A DNA stretch of 40,000 nt from Halomonas salipaludis (GCF_002286975.1 NZ_NSKB01000001.1:24733-64732), one strand, 5' to 3'. Counted from the stretch's first letter, positions 922 to 13,497 are shown. Numbers and translations are program-made. The notes: a model not told the origin generated them from the letters alone.

Positions 922-1823
922 TCAACCCAGCGGGCTGCGAACACCGGCGAACTCCTTACCCAGCACATGTGTATAGATCTGGGTAGTTTCCACGCTCTTG
1001 TGCCCCAGCAACTCCTGAACGGTGCGGATGTCCGTTCCTTGGCTAAGTAACTGCGTCGCGAAGCTGTGCCGCAAAGTATGGCAGGAGCCGGGGCGTGGTA
1101 ACGATGCTGCTCGCATCGCATTCTTGACGGCCTTCTGCACCGCTGAAGGATGGATATGGTGAAGAACGACCTTGCCGGCATCATCGAAGCAGGGGCGGCT
1201 AGCTGGAAATAGCCATTGCCAGGCCAGGGATGTCCCAGCATTGGGATACTTACGGTCCAGCGCGTGGGGAAGCGTCACAGGAACGCTATCATGGCTCAGG
1301 CGATGTTCAAGTTGCTGTCCTTGTCGCCCTTTCCGGCTCTTATCGTCAGTACCTGACGGTCGAAGTCGACATCGCGTACACGTAGGCGGCAGGTTTCGAG
1401 TACCCGTAATCCCGAGCCATACATCAAGGAGGCCATCAAGTGCACGGGGCCCGAGAGTTGATTCAGCACGCGAACGACCTCTTCGTGAGACAGCACCACC
1501 GGCAGTCGGCGCGGTCGCTTGGCGTGCGCGAAATCACCAATATCGCCGAGAGGCTGATCGAGCACATGGCGATAGAGGAACACGATGGCGTTCAGGGCTT
1601 GGTTCTGTGTGGCCGCTGCCACATGGCGCTGCACCGCAAGGTGCTCCAAGAAAGCCCTGACCTCGGGGCCACCCATGCTAGCGGGATGACGCACGCCATT
1701 GAAACGAATGAAGTAGCGTATCCAGTAGCAGTAGGTTTTTACGGTGCGAGGGCTGTAGCGTCTCACCTTCATGGTGGCCTTCACGCGATCCATGAGCTTT
1801 GGAGGTCGGCTGTGCGCGTCCAT
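922..1823 (-). pseudogene. intI: Integron integrase IntI (tyrosine recombinase), disrupted by frameshift and internal deletion
   Basis: The N-terminal ORF 1296..1823 ('VRRYSPRTVKTYCYWIRYFIRFNGVRHP...[16 protein letters not shown]...[10 protein letters not shown]') ends prematurely. The C-terminal ORF 922..1278 in another frame carries '[19 protein letters not shown]...[12 protein letters not shown]...[38 protein letters not shown]' (RHRY catalytic boxes plus the IntI-specific ALxRKYP segment). Only about 15 codons separate GKGDKD from LPxAL, versus about 35 in IntI proteins as I recall them. Confidence 0.85.
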
Positions 1824-2564: not shown

Positions 2565-2642
2565 CAAGGCCAAGCACAGCGACAGCTTTTCCGTTGCGGC
2601 TTCGCCTCCACTACAAAGCTGCGCGTGTTGGCGGCGTTAGCC
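2559..2642 (+). other. attC site 1
   Basis: R''-like GGTTAAC ... R' GTTAGCC. About 85% identical by eye to attC 20 (19699-19782). Confidence 0.7.
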
Positions 2643-2660
2643 TCACAAGGAGATCAGGGC

Positions 2661-3116
2661 GTGGTTTACTCGAATGCGTCTATTTATAGGGAAATTTCAG
2701 AAGAGGCATATTCAAAAATGTGCTCTCTTTTGGATGAGGGAAGAACGCCGAAAAATGATGGATCCGGTGGCTACATTATTAAGTATGATCCAGCCCGTAA
2801 TTCATTCAAACAGTCGATGATTGTGGTGGTATTTACGGGTATGTGGCTAGAGGCAATTCTCCATCAGATAATAGTTGCCAGGCACGGCGGCGATGAATTC
2901 AAAAAGTATGATTTTAAGTCATATCGAGAAAAGTTAATTTTATTGGGTGTTTCATCTACCGAAGTACTGGATAAAGTAGATTCATTCAAAGCTACACGAA
3001 AAGAGTTAGTGCATGAAAAAGTCTTTTTCGATAACAGCGAAATTAAGGTGGCCCAACAAGAGGCAGAGTTGGCTCATCAAGTGATGTCGAGCGTGTCTCA
3101 TGCGCTGGACATCTAA
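2661..3116 (+). CDS. Hypothetical protein with Rx4H (HEPN-like) motif (cassette 2)
   Basis: GTG 2661 lies 8 nt after AAGGAG. The ORF-track start at 2625 lies inside attC 1. Motif 'KATRKELVHEKVF' near the C-terminus. Confidence 0.55.
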   Translation: MVYSNASIYREISEEAYSKMCSLLDEGRTPKNDGSGGYIIKYDPARNSFKQSMIVVVFTGMWLEAILHQIIVARHGGDEFKKYDFKSYREKLILLGVSSTEVLDKVDSFKATRKELVHEKVFFDNSEIKVAQQEAELAHQVMSSVSHALDI

Positions 3117-3201: not shown

Positions 3202-3609
3202 ATGAAGGCGCCGACTGATCTAGAGTTGCTCGATCACATATATGAAAGTTATTACTCAACGTTTTCGTCATACACCAAAGAAGACGCAGATAGGGATAGC
3301 AAAATATACGTCCCTATCGACTGTGCCGAGATCGCTAGGCACTTCGGTGTAGACAGGGATATTGTTTTCGGTCGCCTCTATTACCACTTGGAAAAGAAGT
3401 ATGGGTACAAGCAAAGTGATGGAGTGAATGTGCATTTTTTTGCTCTGAGGGTAGGCGACGATATTAAATGCATAAACTTCCCACTTTTAGCCTCTGTTGT
3501 TGCGGGCCTAAGGCAAGAGTACAGGAAGTTTTGGCTAGCTACTGGCATTTCGATTGGGGCATTGGTCATCTCATCAATTTCACTTGGAGTAAGTCTGTTA
3601 GGCCCCTAA
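3202..3609 (+). CDS. Hypothetical small protein with a C-terminal transmembrane helix (cassette 3)
   Basis: 135-aa ORF with a hydrophobic tail 'FWLATGISIGALVISSISLGVSLLGP'. The TAA stop is inside attC R''. Confidence 0.6.
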   Translation: MKAPTDLELLDHIYESYYSTFSSYTKEDADRDSKIYVPIDCAEIARHFGVDRDIVFGRLYYHLEKKYGYKQSDGVNVHFFALRVGDDIKCINFPLLASVVAGLRQEYRKFWLATGISIGALVISSISLGVSLLGP

Positions 3610-3692
3610 CCAGTCGGTCAACCGGACGCCAAAAGCATCCCGCTTTTGGTCCCCACCGTTGCGCGCTGGCGCCGGTTACCTAAGCGTTATGT
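3604..3692 (+). other. attC site 3
   Basis: R'' CCCTAAC ... R' GTTATGT (3686-3692). Its ends resemble attC 8. Confidence 0.7.
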
Positions 3693-3720
3693 CCTTGAGG
3701 TCGCGGAGCAATAGTCAGTC

Positions 3721-4656
3721 ATGGAATATCAATTAGATATTAAAGAAAATGCGCTCGATAGTTTTAATGAGGCGCTGGCTAAGTTTGAGCAAGGTGAAAA
3801 TGGTGAATTACGCCATTATAAATTTGCCATTTTGCATCTCTCTCATTTTTTAGAGTTGGTTCTGAAGCTTTATGTAGCGTCGGTTGATAAAAATCTTGTT
3901 TTCAGCAAGTGCTACAAGCATGTCGAGAAACGAGCCAAAAAGGAATCTATAAATCTACATCAGGCATATCAGTTACTTTGCAAAGAAGGCTTTGATTTCG
4001 GATCATTGCTAGCGAGCATCCCCCACCCACATACGATCACGCTCGACCAAGCGCTAGAGTTTTCTAAATGTGAAAAATGTGGCGTTACTGGTGTAGATTT
4101 TGTCGACGTAGATTTTTGTAACGACATCGAGTGGCTAAAAGGACTTAGAAACAATATAGAACATTATCAGTTTAGGCTTCCACCGAAGGAAGTGCGCCTT
4201 TGTATTGGTCGTTTGGTTCGAGGGGTAGCAGAATTTGTTGATATTTTCAGTCTGTTTGATCTTGAAAGTGAAGTTGGTAAAGAGAGTTATCATGTTTTTG
4301 AAGTTTTGGCAGACGAATACGCTCACCTTCTAAAAGAGGCTGAAAGAGAGGTTGTAGAAAAAAAGGAAGAAACGTACAGGGGAGTAAGGCCAAAGCACTA
4401 CGTGTTTATCGAATGGAACGTTTATCAGTGCCCTGAATGCTCGAACAATACAATGATACCATCAGACGATTCCAGCACCGGGTACAAATGCACCTTTTGC
4501 TCAAATGAGGAAAGCGACGAAATAGAAATTCCTTGTGATTGCTGCGGAGCGATGGCAACAGTAGAAGAAATGGCTACCTGGAAAATGGATGATGGTACCA
4601 TCGAGAATCGGTGTTATTTTTGTTCTGGACAATACTATGCTGATAAAGATGACTGA
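3721..4656 (+). CDS. HEPN-like (RNNIEH) protein with a C-terminal 4x CxxC zinc-ribbon region (cassette 4)
   Basis: 311-aa ORF. It carries 'LKGLRNNIEHYQF' (RNxxxH, the classic HEPN RNase motif). The C-terminus has CPEC...CTFC...CDCC...CYFC. Confidence 0.6.
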   Translation: MEYQLDIKENALDSFNEALAKFEQGENGELRHYKFAILHLSHFLELVLKLYVASVDKNLVFSKCYKHVEKRAKKESINLHQAYQLLCKEGFDFGSLLASIPHPHTITLDQALEFSKCEKCGVTGVDFVDVDFCNDIEWLKGLRNNIEHYQFRLPPKEVRLCIGRLVRGVAEFVDIFSLFDLESEVGKESYHVFEVLADEYAHLLKEAEREVVEKKEETYRGVRPKHYVFIEWNVYQCPECSNNTMIPSDDSSTGYKCTFCSNEESDEIEIPCDCCGAMATVEEMATWKMDDGTIENRCYFCSGQYYADKDD

Positions 4657-4728
4657 CATAACAATCGCGTCAATAGGGACTGGTTTTCCGCTGGCGCTCC
4701 AAACCAGCCCATTACGCGGGCGTTAGGG
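4656..4728 (+). other. attC site 4
   Basis: R'' ACATAAC ... R' GTTAGGG (4722-4728). Confidence 0.7.
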
Positions 4729-4758
4729 TCACGAACTAGTAGGAAGTATTTGGGAACT

Positions 4759-5721
4759 ATGGAAAAGAAATTTCGGGGAAACGTCGCTGCGGCAAAAAGG
4801 CTGCTACTCACTAGGGCAGGAAATAGATGTTCCAACCCGAACTGTGGTGTTCGCTTGATTACTGATGACGGAATTCCCATCGCGGAGATCTGCCACATAG
4901 AGGCAATTTCGGAAGGTGGTCCCAGATACAACCCAGAAAAAATAATTAACAAAGAAGACGCTCGGAAAAGAATTGCTGATCTAGATAATTTAATCATTCT
5001 CTGTCCAAGCTGCCACAGGCTAGTGGATAGTGATCCTATCTATTACGATGCAGATTGGCTTAGGACCGCTAGAGAGGAACACGAGCGAAAAGTCTTAAAT
5101 CAACTCGAATCAAAAAGCGCTCCTACTTCTAATAAGGAACTAAATCGCACGGTCACAAGCTTTCACCAAAGCCTGGATATCTGGCGAGAGAATATTGAAA
5201 ATGGAGATGAAGAGTTCTGGCAATCCTTGTTTAAAACCAATCCAAAGCTAATAGCCCAAGCTATTCCGAACCATATTATTCAGATTGGCGATAAATGTTA
5301 CCTTGGTGGGAAGGGTGCTGAGAATAAAGGCGGGAAGGTCGTTGATTTTCTATATGCAACCAATTTTAGCAAGAATTTTGTTGTTGTCGAGATTAAAACT
5401 CCAAAAACAAGGTTAATCGGAAAGGAGTATAGGACTTGTGTTTTCTCTCCAGCTGAGGACTTGACTGGCTCTATTGTGCAAGTCCTGTCATACAAAACTA
5501 CTTTGTTGAAGGATTTCCACTCTGTCCAAAGAGACAACTCCTTTCAAGCTTTCGAACCTACCTGCCTTGTTATTGCCGGCAACTTAGAAATGGAAGCTGA
5601 CGATGCGGGTAAGCGTGCTTCGTTTGATCTGTATCGCTCAAACTCGAACGTGCTAATAATCACCTACGATGAGCTTTTTTACAAAATAGAAAGTCTTTTG
5701 GAGCTGCTCGATGAAGGCTGA
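4759..5721 (+). CDS. HNH endonuclease domain fused to a DUF4263 / Shedu (SduA-like) nuclease domain (cassette 5)
   Basis: N-terminus: 'CSNPNCGV...CHIEAISEGGPRYN...NLIILCPSCHRLVD' (HNH). C-terminus: 'EEFWQSLFKTNPKLI...VVDFLYATNFSKNFVVVEIKTPKT...GSIVQVLSYK', matching the DUF4263 PD-(D/E)xK core as I recall it. ATG 4759 is preferred; TTG 4750 is possible. Confidence 0.75.
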   Translation: MEKKFRGNVAAAKRLLLTRAGNRCSNPNCGVRLITDDGIPIAEICHIEAISEGGPRYNPEKIINKEDARKRIADLDNLIILCPSCHRLVDSDPIYYDADWLRTAREEHERKVLNQLESKSAPTSNKELNRTVTSFHQSLDIWRENIENGDEEFWQSLFKTNPKLIAQAIPNHIIQIGDKCYLGGKGAENKGGKVVDFLYATNFSKNFVVVEIKTPKTRLIGKEYRTCVFSPAEDLTGSIVQVLSYKTTLLKDFHSVQRDNSFQAFEPTCLVIAGNLEMEADDAGKRASFDLYRSNSNVLIITYDELFYKIESLLELLDEG

Positions 5722-6359: not shown

Positions 6360-6950
6360 ATGATGACAGTTAAGGAACCAGTCAAAAGCGTCGTAAATCA
6401 AAACACTCTACCTGTGGGTTTTCCTACACATGCTCATGGGACAGAATTTTGGGAGTGTTTGGGTAGAACAGTTGCCACATTTGGGTTCCTCGAAGAAGTG
6501 TTGGTAAAAGCTATTTTCGCTTTTACCGCTACTACGGAGTACAGCGAAGCTGAAATCGAAGAAGCATACTCAAAGTGGGTTCCTAAGCTAGAGAGATCCC
6601 TGTCTGATCAGCTTGGCGCGTTAATAGACACCTACGGAAAATCTGTACGCGATAATTCAGACGCGACAATAGAGAATCTTGATGACTTAATAAATGACCT
6701 TCGAGCCGCATCGAAAATACGTAATGTTTTGTGTCATGGCTCATGGCGTATGCCAGATAGTAACGGGGCGTCAATTCCGTTCTTTGTAAATCGCCAGAAA
6801 GAGGTTTTTGAAACATCAATTGATGTTGCTTTTCTGAACCAGGTTCAAAAGCATGCAGTAGAGTTAAGCTGTGCCGTAATAAATACTGTAACTCATATGG
6901 GGTGGCAGTTTCCAAGTAGTAATGGGCCGGGCGAAGTAGTATGGCGCTAA
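6360..6950 (+). CDS. Hypothetical protein with Rx4H (HEPN-like) motif (cassette 7)
   Basis: 196-aa ORF with tandem ATGs at 6360/6363 after GGAGG. Motif 'AASKIRNVLCHGSW'. Confidence 0.55.
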   Translation: MMTVKEPVKSVVNQNTLPVGFPTHAHGTEFWECLGRTVATFGFLEEVLVKAIFAFTATTEYSEAEIEEAYSKWVPKLERSLSDQLGALIDTYGKSVRDNSDATIENLDDLINDLRAASKIRNVLCHGSWRMPDSNGASIPFFVNRQKEVFETSIDVAFLNQVQKHAVELSCAVINTVTHMGWQFPSSNGPGEVVWR

Positions 6951-12984: not shown

Positions 12985-13008
12985 ATCCATCGGATTCCCG
13001 AGGTGATA

Positions 13009-13497
13009 ATGGACTTTTTTGATAAGTCAGACATTCAAGGGTCTCTTCGACGAATTGAAGAGCTTTTAGACTGTGGAATATTCGAACCGAAAAACTCATC
13101 GCATGTACTGATGAGAGCGGCATTCATCGAACTGCTGATTTCACTTAGGGACTTGATGTATAAGACCGAGAAATACTCTTCCCGAATAGCTTTTAAAGAT
13201 GATGTTCCCGTAGGAGGGCGGATAAATGATGTTAGTGATCTGATCAAGTACGTCAGAGACGCACTTTGTCACCCGGATTCGGATAATCACTACATCGAAA
13301 AAGGTAATATGAAAGCCACGTTCAATGTGGCGTTTGGTAGAGCAAAATTATTGAAAATAGGTGACTTCGAACAAGAATCGCTATATGACGACGACATTTG
13401 CTTTTTCTTTGGGTCGAAAGGAATTTACCTCAGAAGGCATATAATCCGGGCGTTCGAAGAAGCGAAGGGTAAACTTGAGCCGATAGTAAATTGCTAG
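13009..13497 (+). CDS. Hypothetical protein with Rx4H (HEPN-like) motif (cassette 13)
   Basis: ATG 13009 follows GAGGTG. Motif 'KYVRDALCHPDSDNH'. Confidence 0.5.
   Translation: MDFFDKSDIQGSLRRIEELLDCGIFEPKNSSHVLMRAAFIELLISLRDLMYKTEKYSSRIAFKDDVPVGGRINDVSDLIKYVRDALCHPDSDNHYIEKGNMKATFNVAFGRAKLLKIGDFEQESLYDDDICFFFGSKGIYLRRHIIRAFEEAKGKLEPIVNC

What the first reader, a model, noticed from the sequence alone, without database searches (positions are those of the whole stretch)
3721..4656. Cassette 4: HEPN-like RNNIEH domain fused to a double zinc ribbon - candidate single-gene defence/toxin
'LKGLRNNIEHYQF' is a textbook RNxxxH HEPN signature in the middle of an alpha-helical N-terminal region. The C-terminal 80 aa carry four CxxC pairs (CPEC, CTFC, CDCC, CYFC), which suggests two zinc ribbons that could act as a nucleic-acid sensor. 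I do not recognise this HEPN + zinc-ribbon architecture as a named defence system. It sits in a mobile cassette directly upstream of a Shedu-like gene.
Basis: inference. Interest (0 to 1): 0.65.

Follow-up and report, generated by a model that had tools for sequence, protein, structure and literature searches.

The report
HEPN RNase with two zinc ribbons
This integron cassette carries one gene for a predicted RNA-cutting (HEPN) enzyme joined to two zinc-binding ribbons; it is an untested, divergent relative of a single-gene anti-phage protein already shown to work (HEC-08), so the reading is sound but the design is not new.

Summary
ORF 3721-4656 (+) encodes 311 aa carrying LKGLRNNIEHYQF and four CxxC pairs. 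It is the only gene of an attC-bounded integron cassette, directly upstream of an HNH-Shedu cassette.

R143/N144/H148 and seven cysteines are invariant in 43 homologues down to 30% identity. dN is 0.06 against saturated dS, which indicates strong purifying selection.

The N-terminal domain is a DUF3644-type HEPN domain:
- The family profile matches core PDC-S64 proteins (hhalign 99.1%, E 1.8e-18).
- Short-form members pass or approach Pfam DUF3644.
- The best Foldseek hits of the AF2 model (pLDDT 91) are HepT HEPN toxins, though not significantly.

The family has no conserved partner gene. It occurs in integron cassettes, alone in Aeromonas, on plasmids, and embedded HmaA-gene-HmaB-HmaC. The last is the setting in which HEC-08 (HEPN plus zinc ribbons; defence lost on mutating the motif His) was found.

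The window protein scores only 60.6 bits on PDC-S64 and does not hit the HEC-08 model, so it belongs to a sister branch.

Most likely it is a self-contained abortive-infection RNase whose zinc module senses the trigger. That mechanism is inferred.

Other windows of this scan have found this family repeatedly. Verdict: new member of a known kind, of modest interest.

The parts
3607..3689 (+). attC of the preceding cassette (left boundary of this cassette; recombination point in GCG|TTATG)
   Evidence: Repeat families D2/D6/D8 shared with other attC sites of the array. TAAC...GTTA inverted-repeat scan. Hairpin fold z = -2.5.
3690..4727 (+). Integron gene cassette of about 1.04 kb holding a single ORF. 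GC is about 40-44%, against about 65% for the host chromosome.
   Evidence: There is no room for a second gene. The minus-strand ORFs inside are 50-63 aa and have no support.
3721..4656 (+). Coding sequence of the 311-aa HEPN + two-zinc-ribbon protein
   Evidence: 146 homologues with E <= 1e-3. PHROG 20824 matched full length, E 3.6e-152. dN 0.064 with saturated dS against the Aeromonas copy.
3721..3885 (+). HEPN helices alpha1-alpha2 (residues 1-55) with invariant N10, D13, S14, E17, K34, F35, H42, E45, L46, K49
   Evidence: conservation. (helices 7-26 and 32-55). Aligned to PDC-S64 and HEC-08 helices.
3886..4107 (+). Helical insert of about 75 residues (56-129) between HEPN alpha2 and alpha3. 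It is present only in the 'long form' of the family and is among the most variable regions.
   Evidence: Alignments: short forms of 250-280 aa lack it. Mean pairwise identity 0.44 against 0.62 for the HEPN core.
4108..4245 (+). HEPN helices alpha3-alpha4 (residues 130-175)
   Evidence: AF2 helices 130-148 and 155-175. hhalign to PDC-S64 member P0266, prob 99.1%.
4147..4164 (+). Predicted catalytic motif R143-N-N-I-E-H148 (Rx4H)
   Evidence: RNxIEH is present in all 43 loci. R143, N144, I146 and H148 are invariant. The equivalent His of HEC-08 (H128) is required for defence (paper 10.1101/2024.01.29.577857).
4246..4419 (+). Long linker helix (residues about 187-219) plus a short helix joining the HEPN domain to the zinc module
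   Evidence: AF2 secondary structure. Variable: identity 0.34-0.49.
4420..4509 (+). Zinc ribbon 1 (C237/C240 + C257/C260)
   Evidence: All four Cys are invariant. Beta-hairpin in the model. Foldseek local matches to small zinc-binding ribosomal proteins, prob about 0.9 but E > 1.
4510..4629 (+). Zinc ribbon 2 (C272/C275 + C298/C301)
   Evidence: C272, C275 and C298 are invariant; whether the fourth Cys (C301) is conserved was not established, as it is not among the invariant or >=90% columns. Strands 269-297 in the model. With the tail it is the most variable module (identity 0.36-0.46).
4630..4653 (+). C-terminal tail ending in ...YYADKDD. An acidic ...DD end recurs in short-form relatives (...YVKDD) and in HEC-08 (...RYFDD).
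   Evidence: Function unknown.
4659..4727 (+). attC of this cassette (TAAC...GTTA; imperfect hairpin with bulged bases)
   Evidence: Repeat families D3/D11/D14. Scan score 13 against a null 99th percentile of 10. DNA fold -16.7 kcal/mol, z = -3.9.

Best explanation
The gene encodes a self-contained, single-protein anti-phage (abortive-infection type) ribonuclease of the DUF3644-like HEPN + zinc-ribbon superfamily. That superfamily also contains the validated defence protein HEC-08 and the PADLOC candidate PDC-S64.

Shown here:
- A confident helical N-terminal domain with an invariant Rx4H motif, homologous to the PDC-S64/DUF3644 HEPN domains.
- Two C4 zinc ribbons.
- No conserved partner gene.
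- Strong purifying selection.
- A patchy, horizontally spread distribution in mobile and defence contexts.

Inferred:
- The protein is held inactive in uninfected cells.
- A phage-derived cue is sensed through the variable C-terminal zinc module (and/or the variable insert).
- HEPN domains of two or more protomers then pair to form the composite R/H active site.
- RNA (mRNA, tRNA or rRNA) is cleaved, translation stops, and the infected cell fails to yield phage.
- By analogy with RAZR, the cue is at least as likely to be a phage protein assembly as a nucleic acid.
For: Sequence and conservation: RNxIEH and four CxxC pairs are conserved in 43 loci of 30-85% identity. dN is 0.064 with saturated dS against the Aeromonas copy.

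HEPN homology:
- PADLOC PDC-S64 E 2.9e-17 for the window protein.
- Short-form relatives hit PDC-S64 at up to 7e-28, DUF3644 at 5e-6, HEC-08 at 4e-4 and Csx1/CARF-HEPN at 4e-4.
- The family profile retrieves core PDC-S64 proteins at about 1e-26. These score 280-467 bits on PDC-S64 and hit DUF3644 at 2e-16 and HEC-08 at 4e-14.
- hhalign of family against P0266 gives prob 99.1%, E 1.8e-18, with the RNxIxH motifs aligned.
- Pfam DUF3644 is the top hit of short-form members; P0121 scores 31.4 bits, above the 27.6 cut-off.

Fold: the AF2 N-domain has pLDDT 91. The four best Foldseek PDB hits are HepT-type HEPN toxins.

Stand-alone status: there is no conserved neighbour across 43 loci. The cassette holds a single ORF. 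The gene is solitary between argH and an FMN-binding gene in Aeromonas.

Defence association:
- Embedded HmaA-gene-HmaB-HmaC in L035, and next to AbiLi/AbiLii in L034.
- Adjacent to a Shedu cassette here.
- attC-bounded in at least 6 other loci.
- Patchy: 6 of 201 genomes of the same family, 0 of 5 of the genus.

Precedent: HEC-08 defence depends on the motif His. RAZR's zinc-finger domain binds phage rings and activates HEPN ssRNA cleavage.
Against: - No member of this particular branch has been tested; function rests on homology and context.
- The window protein itself does not reach any HEPN model except PDC-S64: no Pfam hit at E <= 1, and only E 0.072 to DUF3644 after removing the insert.
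- hhalign to HEC-08 gives only 16% probability.
- Foldseek matches are not significant (best E 0.23, TM 0.38-0.49).
- No solved structure is detectable by sequence.
- Most of the 43 loci have no recognisable defence neighbours. Some copies sit among housekeeping genes.
- The intI of this integron is split, and no promoter-like site was found in or just upstream of the cassette, so expression of this copy is unknown.
Confidence: 0.7

Rival explanations
1. It is a selfish stabilising toxin or addiction gene of mobile elements. It would be an RNase whose role is to stabilise the cassette array, plasmid or island rather than to stop phages, with an antitoxin elsewhere or intramolecular.
For: - HEPN domains are common toxins of HEPN-MNT toxin-antitoxin pairs, and the best structural matches are HepT toxins.
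- Chromosomal integrons are rich in toxin-antitoxin cassettes (paper 10.1101/2024.07.02.601686).
- The gene rides on cassettes, plasmids and an ICE-like region.
Against: - There is no MNT or any other conserved partner in 43 loci, and no room for one in the cassette.
- Copies persist alone in chromosomal housekeeping contexts.
- Relatives are embedded in Hma defence operons.
- The nearest tested relative gives phage defence.
Confidence: 0.1
2. It serves (pro)phages or other mobile elements in conflicts between elements, for example superinfection exclusion or anti-plasmid/anti-satellite activity, rather than as host immunity in the strict sense.
For: - Full-length match to a PHROG family of (pro)phage proteins (phrog_20824, E 3.6e-152).
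- Unchecked notes of this scan place relatives in P2-like prophage cargo slots.
- Homologues occur on conjugative plasmids.
Against: - No match in 50,697 deposited phage genomes.
- Mechanistically this is the same activity as the best explanation. It differs only in who benefits, so it is more a variant than a true rival.
Confidence: 0.12
3. It is a non-defence RNA-processing or regulatory protein, or a catalytically silent RNA/DNA-binding protein, that happens to be mobile.
For: - Some HEPN proteins act in RNA maturation or only bind nucleotides.
- Many loci show no defence neighbours.
Against: - The catalytic R, N and H are invariant.
- The distribution is patchy (6 of 201 genomes) with foreign GC (40% against 65%), which argues against a core cellular role.
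- Relatives are Hma-embedded.
Confidence: 0.06

Closest known systems
HEC-08 (Hma-embedded candidate 08; E. coli ECOR52, WP_001313577.1, 366 aa; Payne et al., bioRxiv 10.1101/2024.01.29.577857)
   Same: - Single-gene system.
- N-terminal DUF3644-type HEPN domain with Rx4H, then a helical linker, then C-terminal CxxC zinc ribbons.
- An acidic ...DD C-terminus.
- Short-form relatives of the window protein are embedded in Hma operons, as HEC-08 is.
- The two are linked through PDC-S64 by significant profile matches.
- HEC-08 defence needs the motif His.
   Different: - The window protein does not hit the HEC-08 HMM at E <= 1.
- hhalign aligns only helices 1-2, at 16% probability.
- It has two ribbons instead of four or five.
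- It has a ~75-aa insert in the HEPN domain.
- It is untested.
PADLOC phage defence candidate PDC-S64 (models PDLC05059/PDLC05058; untested candidate from genes embedded in BREX/DISARM/type I RM)
   Same: - It is the best database hit (E 2.9e-17).
- The HEPN domain is homologous (hhalign 99.1%, E 1.8e-18).
- The order is the same: HEPN, linker helix, zinc ribbons.
- It is a single gene.
   Different: - Core members (337-340 aa) score 280-467 bits and carry three ribbons.
- The window protein scores 60.6 bits in three separate stretches and carries two ribbons plus an insert, so it is a sister branch.
- None of 401 sampled genomes of the phylum gave a strong PDC-S64 match; the best beyond G000 was 35.6 bits.
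RAZR / PD-T7-4 (Zhang et al., Nature 2026, PMC13017515; Vassallo et al. 2022)
   Same: - Single-protein abortive-infection defence made of a zinc-binding module plus a HEPN RNase.
- It gives a worked mechanism: the zinc module binds phage ring proteins, higher-order assembly follows, then non-specific ssRNA cleavage. This is a mechanistic template for 'works like'.
   Different: - Reversed domain order (N-terminal zinc finger, C-terminal DUF4145 HEPN).
- A different HEPN family.
- No PADLOC PD-T7-4 hit for the window protein.
- Not a member.
HepT/MntA (HEPN-MNT) toxin-antitoxin toxins, e.g. Shewanella SO_3166 (PDB 5YEP, 7BXO)
   Same: - Best Foldseek matches of the N-domain model.
- Rx4H RNase fold that works as a dimer.
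   Different: - No MNT antitoxin partner.
- Extra insert and zinc module.
- Matches are not statistically significant (E 0.23).

Membership tests
HEPN superfamily (Rx4-6H RNases) | Conserved R-x4-6-H motif | tested here: met
   R143-NNIE-H148. RNxIEH is present in all 43 loci. R, N and H are invariant.
HEPN superfamily (Rx4-6H RNases) | Four-helix up-and-down bundle fold resembling solved HEPN domains | tested here: inconclusive
   The AF2 N-domain (pLDDT 91) has four long core helices plus an insert. The top four Foldseek PDB hits are HepT HEPN toxins, but E is 0.23-0.94 and TM 0.30-0.49.
HEPN superfamily (Rx4-6H RNases) | Significant profile match to a recognised HEPN family (DUF3644, Pfam PF12358) | tested here: inconclusive
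   The window protein has no Pfam hit at E <= 1. With the insert removed, E is 0.072. Family members do match: P0121 scores 31.4 bits, above the 27.6 cut-off, and L017 gives 1.9e-5. PADLOC's DUF3644 model gives 5e-6 to 6e-5. Membership is therefore transitive, via relatives.
HEPN superfamily (Rx4-6H RNases) | RNase activity dependent on the R and H residues | not testable with these tools
   Needs biochemistry.
HEC-08 | Match to the HEC-08 model (PADLOC PDLC04162) | tested here: not met
   No hit at E <= 1 for the window protein. Relatives reach only 4e-4 to 5e-3. HEC-08 itself scores 575 bits.
HEC-08 | Architecture: N-terminal DUF3644-type HEPN plus C-terminal zinc ribbons, single gene | tested here: met
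   The number of ribbons differs: 2 here against 4-5 in HEC-08.
HEC-08 | Phage defence that is lost on mutating the motif His | not testable with these tools
   Shown only for HEC-08 (paper).
PDC-S64 (PADLOC candidate) | Full-length, high-scoring match to PDLC05059 | tested here: inconclusive
   The window protein scores 60.6 bits, E 2.9e-17, in three stretches. Core members score 280-467 bits over positions 2-335 of 339. PADLOC's own calling thresholds could not be checked.
RAZR / PD-T7-4 | N-terminal zinc-finger domain followed by a DUF4145 HEPN domain | tested here: not met
   The domain order is reversed. No PD-T7-4 or DUF4145 hit.
HEPN-MNT toxin-antitoxin | Adjacent MNT (nucleotidyltransferase) antitoxin gene | tested here: not met
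   Single-ORF cassette. No conserved neighbour in 43 loci.
Integron gene cassette | One promoterless ORF followed by an attC site with inverted core sites that folds as an imperfect hairpin, in an array next to intI | tested here: met
   attC repeat families. Hairpin z = -3.9. No promoter-like site in the cassette. intI-like ORFs at 922-1823 on the minus strand.

The most novel reading that the evidence does not exclude
This two-ribbon, insert-bearing branch may be more than a copy of HEC-08. It may have its own trigger logic: the variable second zinc ribbon and the HEPN insert would read a phage protein assembly, as RAZR does but with a reversed and independently evolved architecture. The conserved acidic ...DD C-terminus, shared with HEC-08, would act as an auto-inhibitory element.

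Separately, the same ORF occurs with attC (this window and Psychromonas) and without attC (Aeromonas), and similarity stops within about 10 nt of the start and stop codons. The family might therefore be a usable case for studying how integron cassettes are born from free-standing genes.
Probability: 0.15. Interest if true: 0.55.

Novelty: new member of a known kind. Interest (0 to 1): 0.3.

Why it matters
The finding adds a widespread, unannotated branch to the HEPN + zinc-ribbon single-gene defences. The profile finds 1,691 clusters at 50% identity with E <= 1e-3, and every named member seen is called 'hypothetical'.

It shows that this branch travels as an integron cassette, beside a Shedu cassette, in a chromosomal integron of a Halomonadaceae genome. 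This fits recent work describing sedentary integrons as stores of small defence genes.

In practice, current Pfam and NCBIfam models miss it, and PADLOC reaches it only weakly. A family model would improve defence annotation.

It does not open a new class of mechanism.

Tried and rejected
- **Family libraries.** Pfam and NCBIfam scans of the full protein gave nothing meaningful.
- **Solved structures by sequence.** Searches with the single protein and with the profile gave only chance hits, to ribosomal uS13 and ArsD.
- **Full-length Foldseek.** No hit at E <= 1e-3 against PDB or the viral library BFVD. I therefore re-modelled the N-domain alone, which ranked HEPN toxins first but still not significantly.
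- **Phage genomes.** tblastn against 50,697 records found no match despite the PHROG hit.
- **A conserved partner gene** (antitoxin or sensor). All-against-all clustering of neighbours in 43 loci found none. Only the Hma genes are shared, by one sub-clade.
- **attC scan.** A strict RYYYAAC/GTTRRRY scan missed even the window's own site. A relaxed TAAC/GTTA scan with a null distribution replaced it. It may still miss variant cores, so 7 of 43 is a lower bound.
- **'PDC-S64' in the literature.** Searches of papers and of the Payne et al. supplements found nothing; the tables are truncated.
- **DS-38.** This is the validated HEPN + zinc-finger system of the DefensePredictor preprint. I could not establish whether it equals HEC-08 or this family. 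No supplement is held, and the name is absent from the published version.
- **BRiC paper on mobile integrons.** It does not mention HEPN.
- **dN/dS.** A number could not be computed because dS is saturated.

Full report
**Observation**

The window holds an open reading frame at 3721-4656 on the + strand, ATG to TGA, 311 aa. Residues 139-151 read LKGLRNNIEHYQF. The R-x4-H codons lie at nt 4147-4164. The last 75 residues carry CPEC (237-240), CTFC (257-260), CDCC (272-275) and CYFC (298-301).

A bare Rx4H motif is not beyond chance in a protein of this size. The conservation is beyond chance. In 43 homologues taken from one-genome-per-species contigs (30-85% identity), RNxIEH occurs in every one and four CxxC pairs in nearly all. 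In the alignment, R143, N144, I146, H148 and seven cysteines are invariant, together with a set of residues in the first two helices: N10, D13, S14, E17, K34, F35, H42, E45, L46, K49.

Against the Aeromonas copy, dN is 0.064 while synonymous sites are saturated. Amino-acid identity is 88.7%, nucleotide identity 80% and third-position identity 54%. The protein is therefore under strong purifying selection.

**Setting in the window**

The region from about 900 to 27,000 is a chromosomal integron. The pieces are:
- intI-like ORFs on the minus strand at 922-1823, split into two frames;
- then an array of + strand cassettes of 43-52% GC, followed by host DNA of about 65% GC;
- attC sites that recur as repeat families beginning ...TAAC and ending GCGTTAG....

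The gene is the only ORF of a cassette of about 1.04 kb. The preceding attC ends at about 3689. The gene's own attC (4659-4727) starts 2 nt after the stop codon and folds as an imperfect hairpin with bulged bases (-16.7 kcal/mol, z = -3.9).

The next cassette (4750-5721) is an HNH + SduA_C Shedu gene (PADLOC SduA E 8e-92). No promoter-like site lies in or just before the cassette, so expression would depend on read-through from upstream.

A neighbouring housekeeping protein of the window clusters with a Franzmannia/Halomonas protein, so the host is a member of the Halomonadaceae.

**What the protein is**

Pfam and NCBIfam give nothing for the full protein. PADLOC gives one hit, the phage defence candidate PDC-S64 (PDLC05059, E 2.9e-17, 60.6 bits, three stretches). 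PHROGs gives a full-length match to phrog_20824, of unknown function (E 3.6e-152).

An AF2 model from 31 homologues is confident (pLDDT 88). From N- to C-terminus it shows:
- helices 7-26 and 32-55;
- a helical insert (56-129);
- helices 130-148, ending in the RNNIEH motif, and 155-175;
- a helix of about 33 residues (187-219);
- two beta-hairpin modules that carry the four CxxC knuckles.

Homology to HEPN was established through a chain of significant profile matches:
- Short-form relatives (250-280 aa, lacking the insert) hit PDC-S64 at up to 7e-28, PADLOC's DUF3644 model at 5e-6 to 6e-5, HEC-08 at 4e-4 to 5e-3, and the Csx1/CARF-HEPN models at about 4e-4 around the motif.
- A profile of the 43 sequences, searched against 1.84 billion representatives, finds 1,691 clusters at E <= 1e-3 (704 at 1e-10, 90 at 1e-30).
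- Among those clusters are proteins of 337-340 aa that are core PDC-S64 members. They score 280-467 bits, full length, and also hit DUF3644 at 2e-16 and HEC-08 at 4e-14.
- hhalign of the family against one such member gives 99.1% probability, E 1.8e-18, over helices 1-3 with the RNxIxH motifs in register.
- In Pfam, DUF3644 (PF12358) is the top hit of short-form members. P0121 scores 31.4 bits, above the 27.6 gathering cut-off. Weaker secondary hits go to the HEPN families pEK499_p136, HepT-like and HEPN.

DUF3644 was classed as a HEPN domain by Anantharaman et al. 2013, as cited by Payne et al.

The window protein itself reaches DUF3644 only at E 0.072 after its insert is removed. Its HEPN assignment is therefore transitive.

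A second AF2 model of residues 1-186 (pLDDT 91) gives HepT-type HEPN toxins as its four best PDB matches: 7bxo, 6m6u and 7ae6. Csm6' and another 'HEPN domain protein' rank lower. Scores are not significant (best E 0.23, prob 0.89, TM 0.38-0.49), so the fold evidence is supportive but not decisive.

The zinc ribbons rest on the invariant cysteine pairs and the modelled hairpins. Foldseek matches to small zinc-binding ribosomal proteins have prob about 0.9 but E > 1.

**Stand-alone or part of a system?**

All-against-all clustering of the ORFs flanking the 43 loci found no neighbour shared across the family. The gene appears in several settings:
- (a) As an attC-bounded cassette here and in at least six other loci: SUP05, Psychromonas, Halomonas halocynthiae, Pseudoalteromonas and two uncultured gammaproteobacteria. 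Their scan scores are 10-14 against a null 99th percentile of 10.
- (b) As a solitary gene between argH and an FMN-binding-protein gene in Aeromonas caviae. It has no attC there, and similarity to the window ends within about 10 nt of the start and stop codons.
- (c) On three plasmids, two of them from E. coli.
- (d) In an ICE-like region of Klebsiella, after a DtrJ-like gene.
- (e) Embedded in Hma defence operons in a Burkholderiales/Nitrosomonadales sub-clade. In L035 the order is HmaA (1,690 bits), the gene, HmaB (1,521 bits), HmaC (1,189 bits). In L034 an AbiLi/AbiLii pair is embedded alongside it.

The family is patchy. It was found in 6 of 201 sampled genomes of the host's taxonomic family and in none of 5 other species of its genus. 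The genome has one copy. The 90%-identity cluster spans Aeromonas species and Pseudidiomarina.

All of this fits a self-sufficient accessory gene with a defence-type life style.

**Comparison with what is known**

Payne et al. (bioRxiv 10.1101/2024.01.29.577857) tested genes embedded in Hma systems. [quoted passage not shown] It protects against phages, and it loses protection when the motif histidine (H128) is mutated. [quoted passage not shown]

I took the HEC-08 sequence from their Table S2. It hits the PDC-S64 model at 3.3e-8. It resembles the window protein in helices 1-2, in the last two ribbons and in the acidic ...DD C-terminus. Direct comparison is nevertheless weak: BLASTP E 0.04, and hhalign 16% probability.

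The window protein does not hit the HEC-08 model. It scores about one-fifth of what core PDC-S64 members score. It has two ribbons, where PDC-S64 has three and HEC-08 four or five. It also carries a 75-residue insert. It is best described as a sister branch within one superfamily.

Two further validated HEPN + zinc-finger single-gene defences exist:
- DS-38, in the DefensePredictor preprint. I could not establish its relationship to this family.
- PD-T7-4, now called RAZR (Nature 2026, PMC13017515). RAZR has the opposite domain order and a different HEPN family (DUF4145), so it is an analogue and not a relative. It gives the only worked mechanism. Its zinc-finger domain binds ring-shaped phage proteins (a portal and a putative recombinase). 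RAZR then assembles into a 24-mer, and the HEPN domains cleave single-stranded RNA non-specifically and shut down translation. The zinc finger is RAZR's most variable part and sets phage specificity.

**Likely mechanism**

Shown here: the domain composition, the conserved catalytic and zinc-binding residues, the absence of a partner gene, purifying selection, and mobile and defence contexts.

Inferred: the protein is an abortive-infection RNase kept inactive until infection. A variable part senses the trigger. HEPN domains then pair to build the composite R/H site, and RNA is cleaved.

In this family the HEPN core and ribbon 1 are the most conserved parts (mean pairwise identity 0.62-0.63 among 31 homologues). 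The insert, the linker helix and ribbon 2 with the tail are the most variable (0.44-0.49). That pattern is weakly consistent with a sensing role for those parts.

**Rivals**

I considered three alternatives:
- An addiction toxin. No partner gene exists, and copies persist alone among housekeeping genes.
- A weapon of mobile elements against each other. The biochemistry would be the same and only the beneficiary would differ.
- A non-defence RNA-processing or RNA-binding protein. This is unlikely given the invariant catalytic residues, the patchy distribution and the Hma embedding.

**Verdict**

Other windows of this scan have reached the same conclusion for look-alike genes, mostly in P2-like prophage cargo slots of E. 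coli. Those are unchecked notes, which I used as leads only. The integron-cassette setting is the distinctive point here.

This is a new member, a divergent branch, of a known kind. Interest is modest.

Noticed in passing
window 2625-3116, 6360-6950 (and 13003-13497): The cassettes at 2625-3116 and 6360-6950 encode small helical proteins with Rx4H motifs (RKELVH, RNVLCH). Neither has any hit in Pfam, NCBIfam, PADLOC or PHROGs at useful E-values. Whether any of them are HEPN domains was not tested further.
   Followed up: partly
window 922-1823 (minus strand): The integron integrase is split into two ORFs in different frames (1296-1823 and 922-1278). The array is therefore probably no longer shuffled by its own integrase.
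   Followed up: no
L053 6001-6936 (Aeromonas caviae), compared with window 3721-4656: The same ORF (88.7% aa, 80% nt identity) sits alone between argH and an FMN_bind_2 gene, with no attC. Similarity to the window stops within about 10 nt of the start and stop codons. Its GC is 37% against 62% in the flanks. An ORF-precise copy in a cassette and in a non-cassette setting may bear on how cassettes arise.
   Followed up: partly
L035 4419-15033; L034 6049-11704: Short-form relatives lie between HmaA and HmaB of complete Hma systems. In L034 and L032 an AbiLi/AbiLii pair is embedded at the same spot, so this junction acts as a slot for accessory defence genes.
   Followed up: yes
window 4630-4653; HEC-08 C-terminus; short-form relatives: The extreme C-terminus ends in an acidic ...(K/F)DD in the window protein, in many short-form relatives (...YVKDD) and in HEC-08 (...RYFDD), despite very low overall similarity. 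It could be a functional tail; its role is unknown.
   Followed up: no
L001 5303-7510 (Klebsiella pneumoniae): An 81%-identical copy starts 3 nt after a DtrJ-like (ICE membrane protein) gene and is followed by a PIN_12 gene, inside an IS-flanked region next to a type IIG-like methylase and an HNH gene. The adjacency is not conserved elsewhere.
   Followed up: partly
window 4750-5721: The HNH + SduA_C Shedu cassette directly downstream is confirmed by Pfam and PADLOC. An earlier follow-up in this scan already judged it ordinary.
   Followed up: partly
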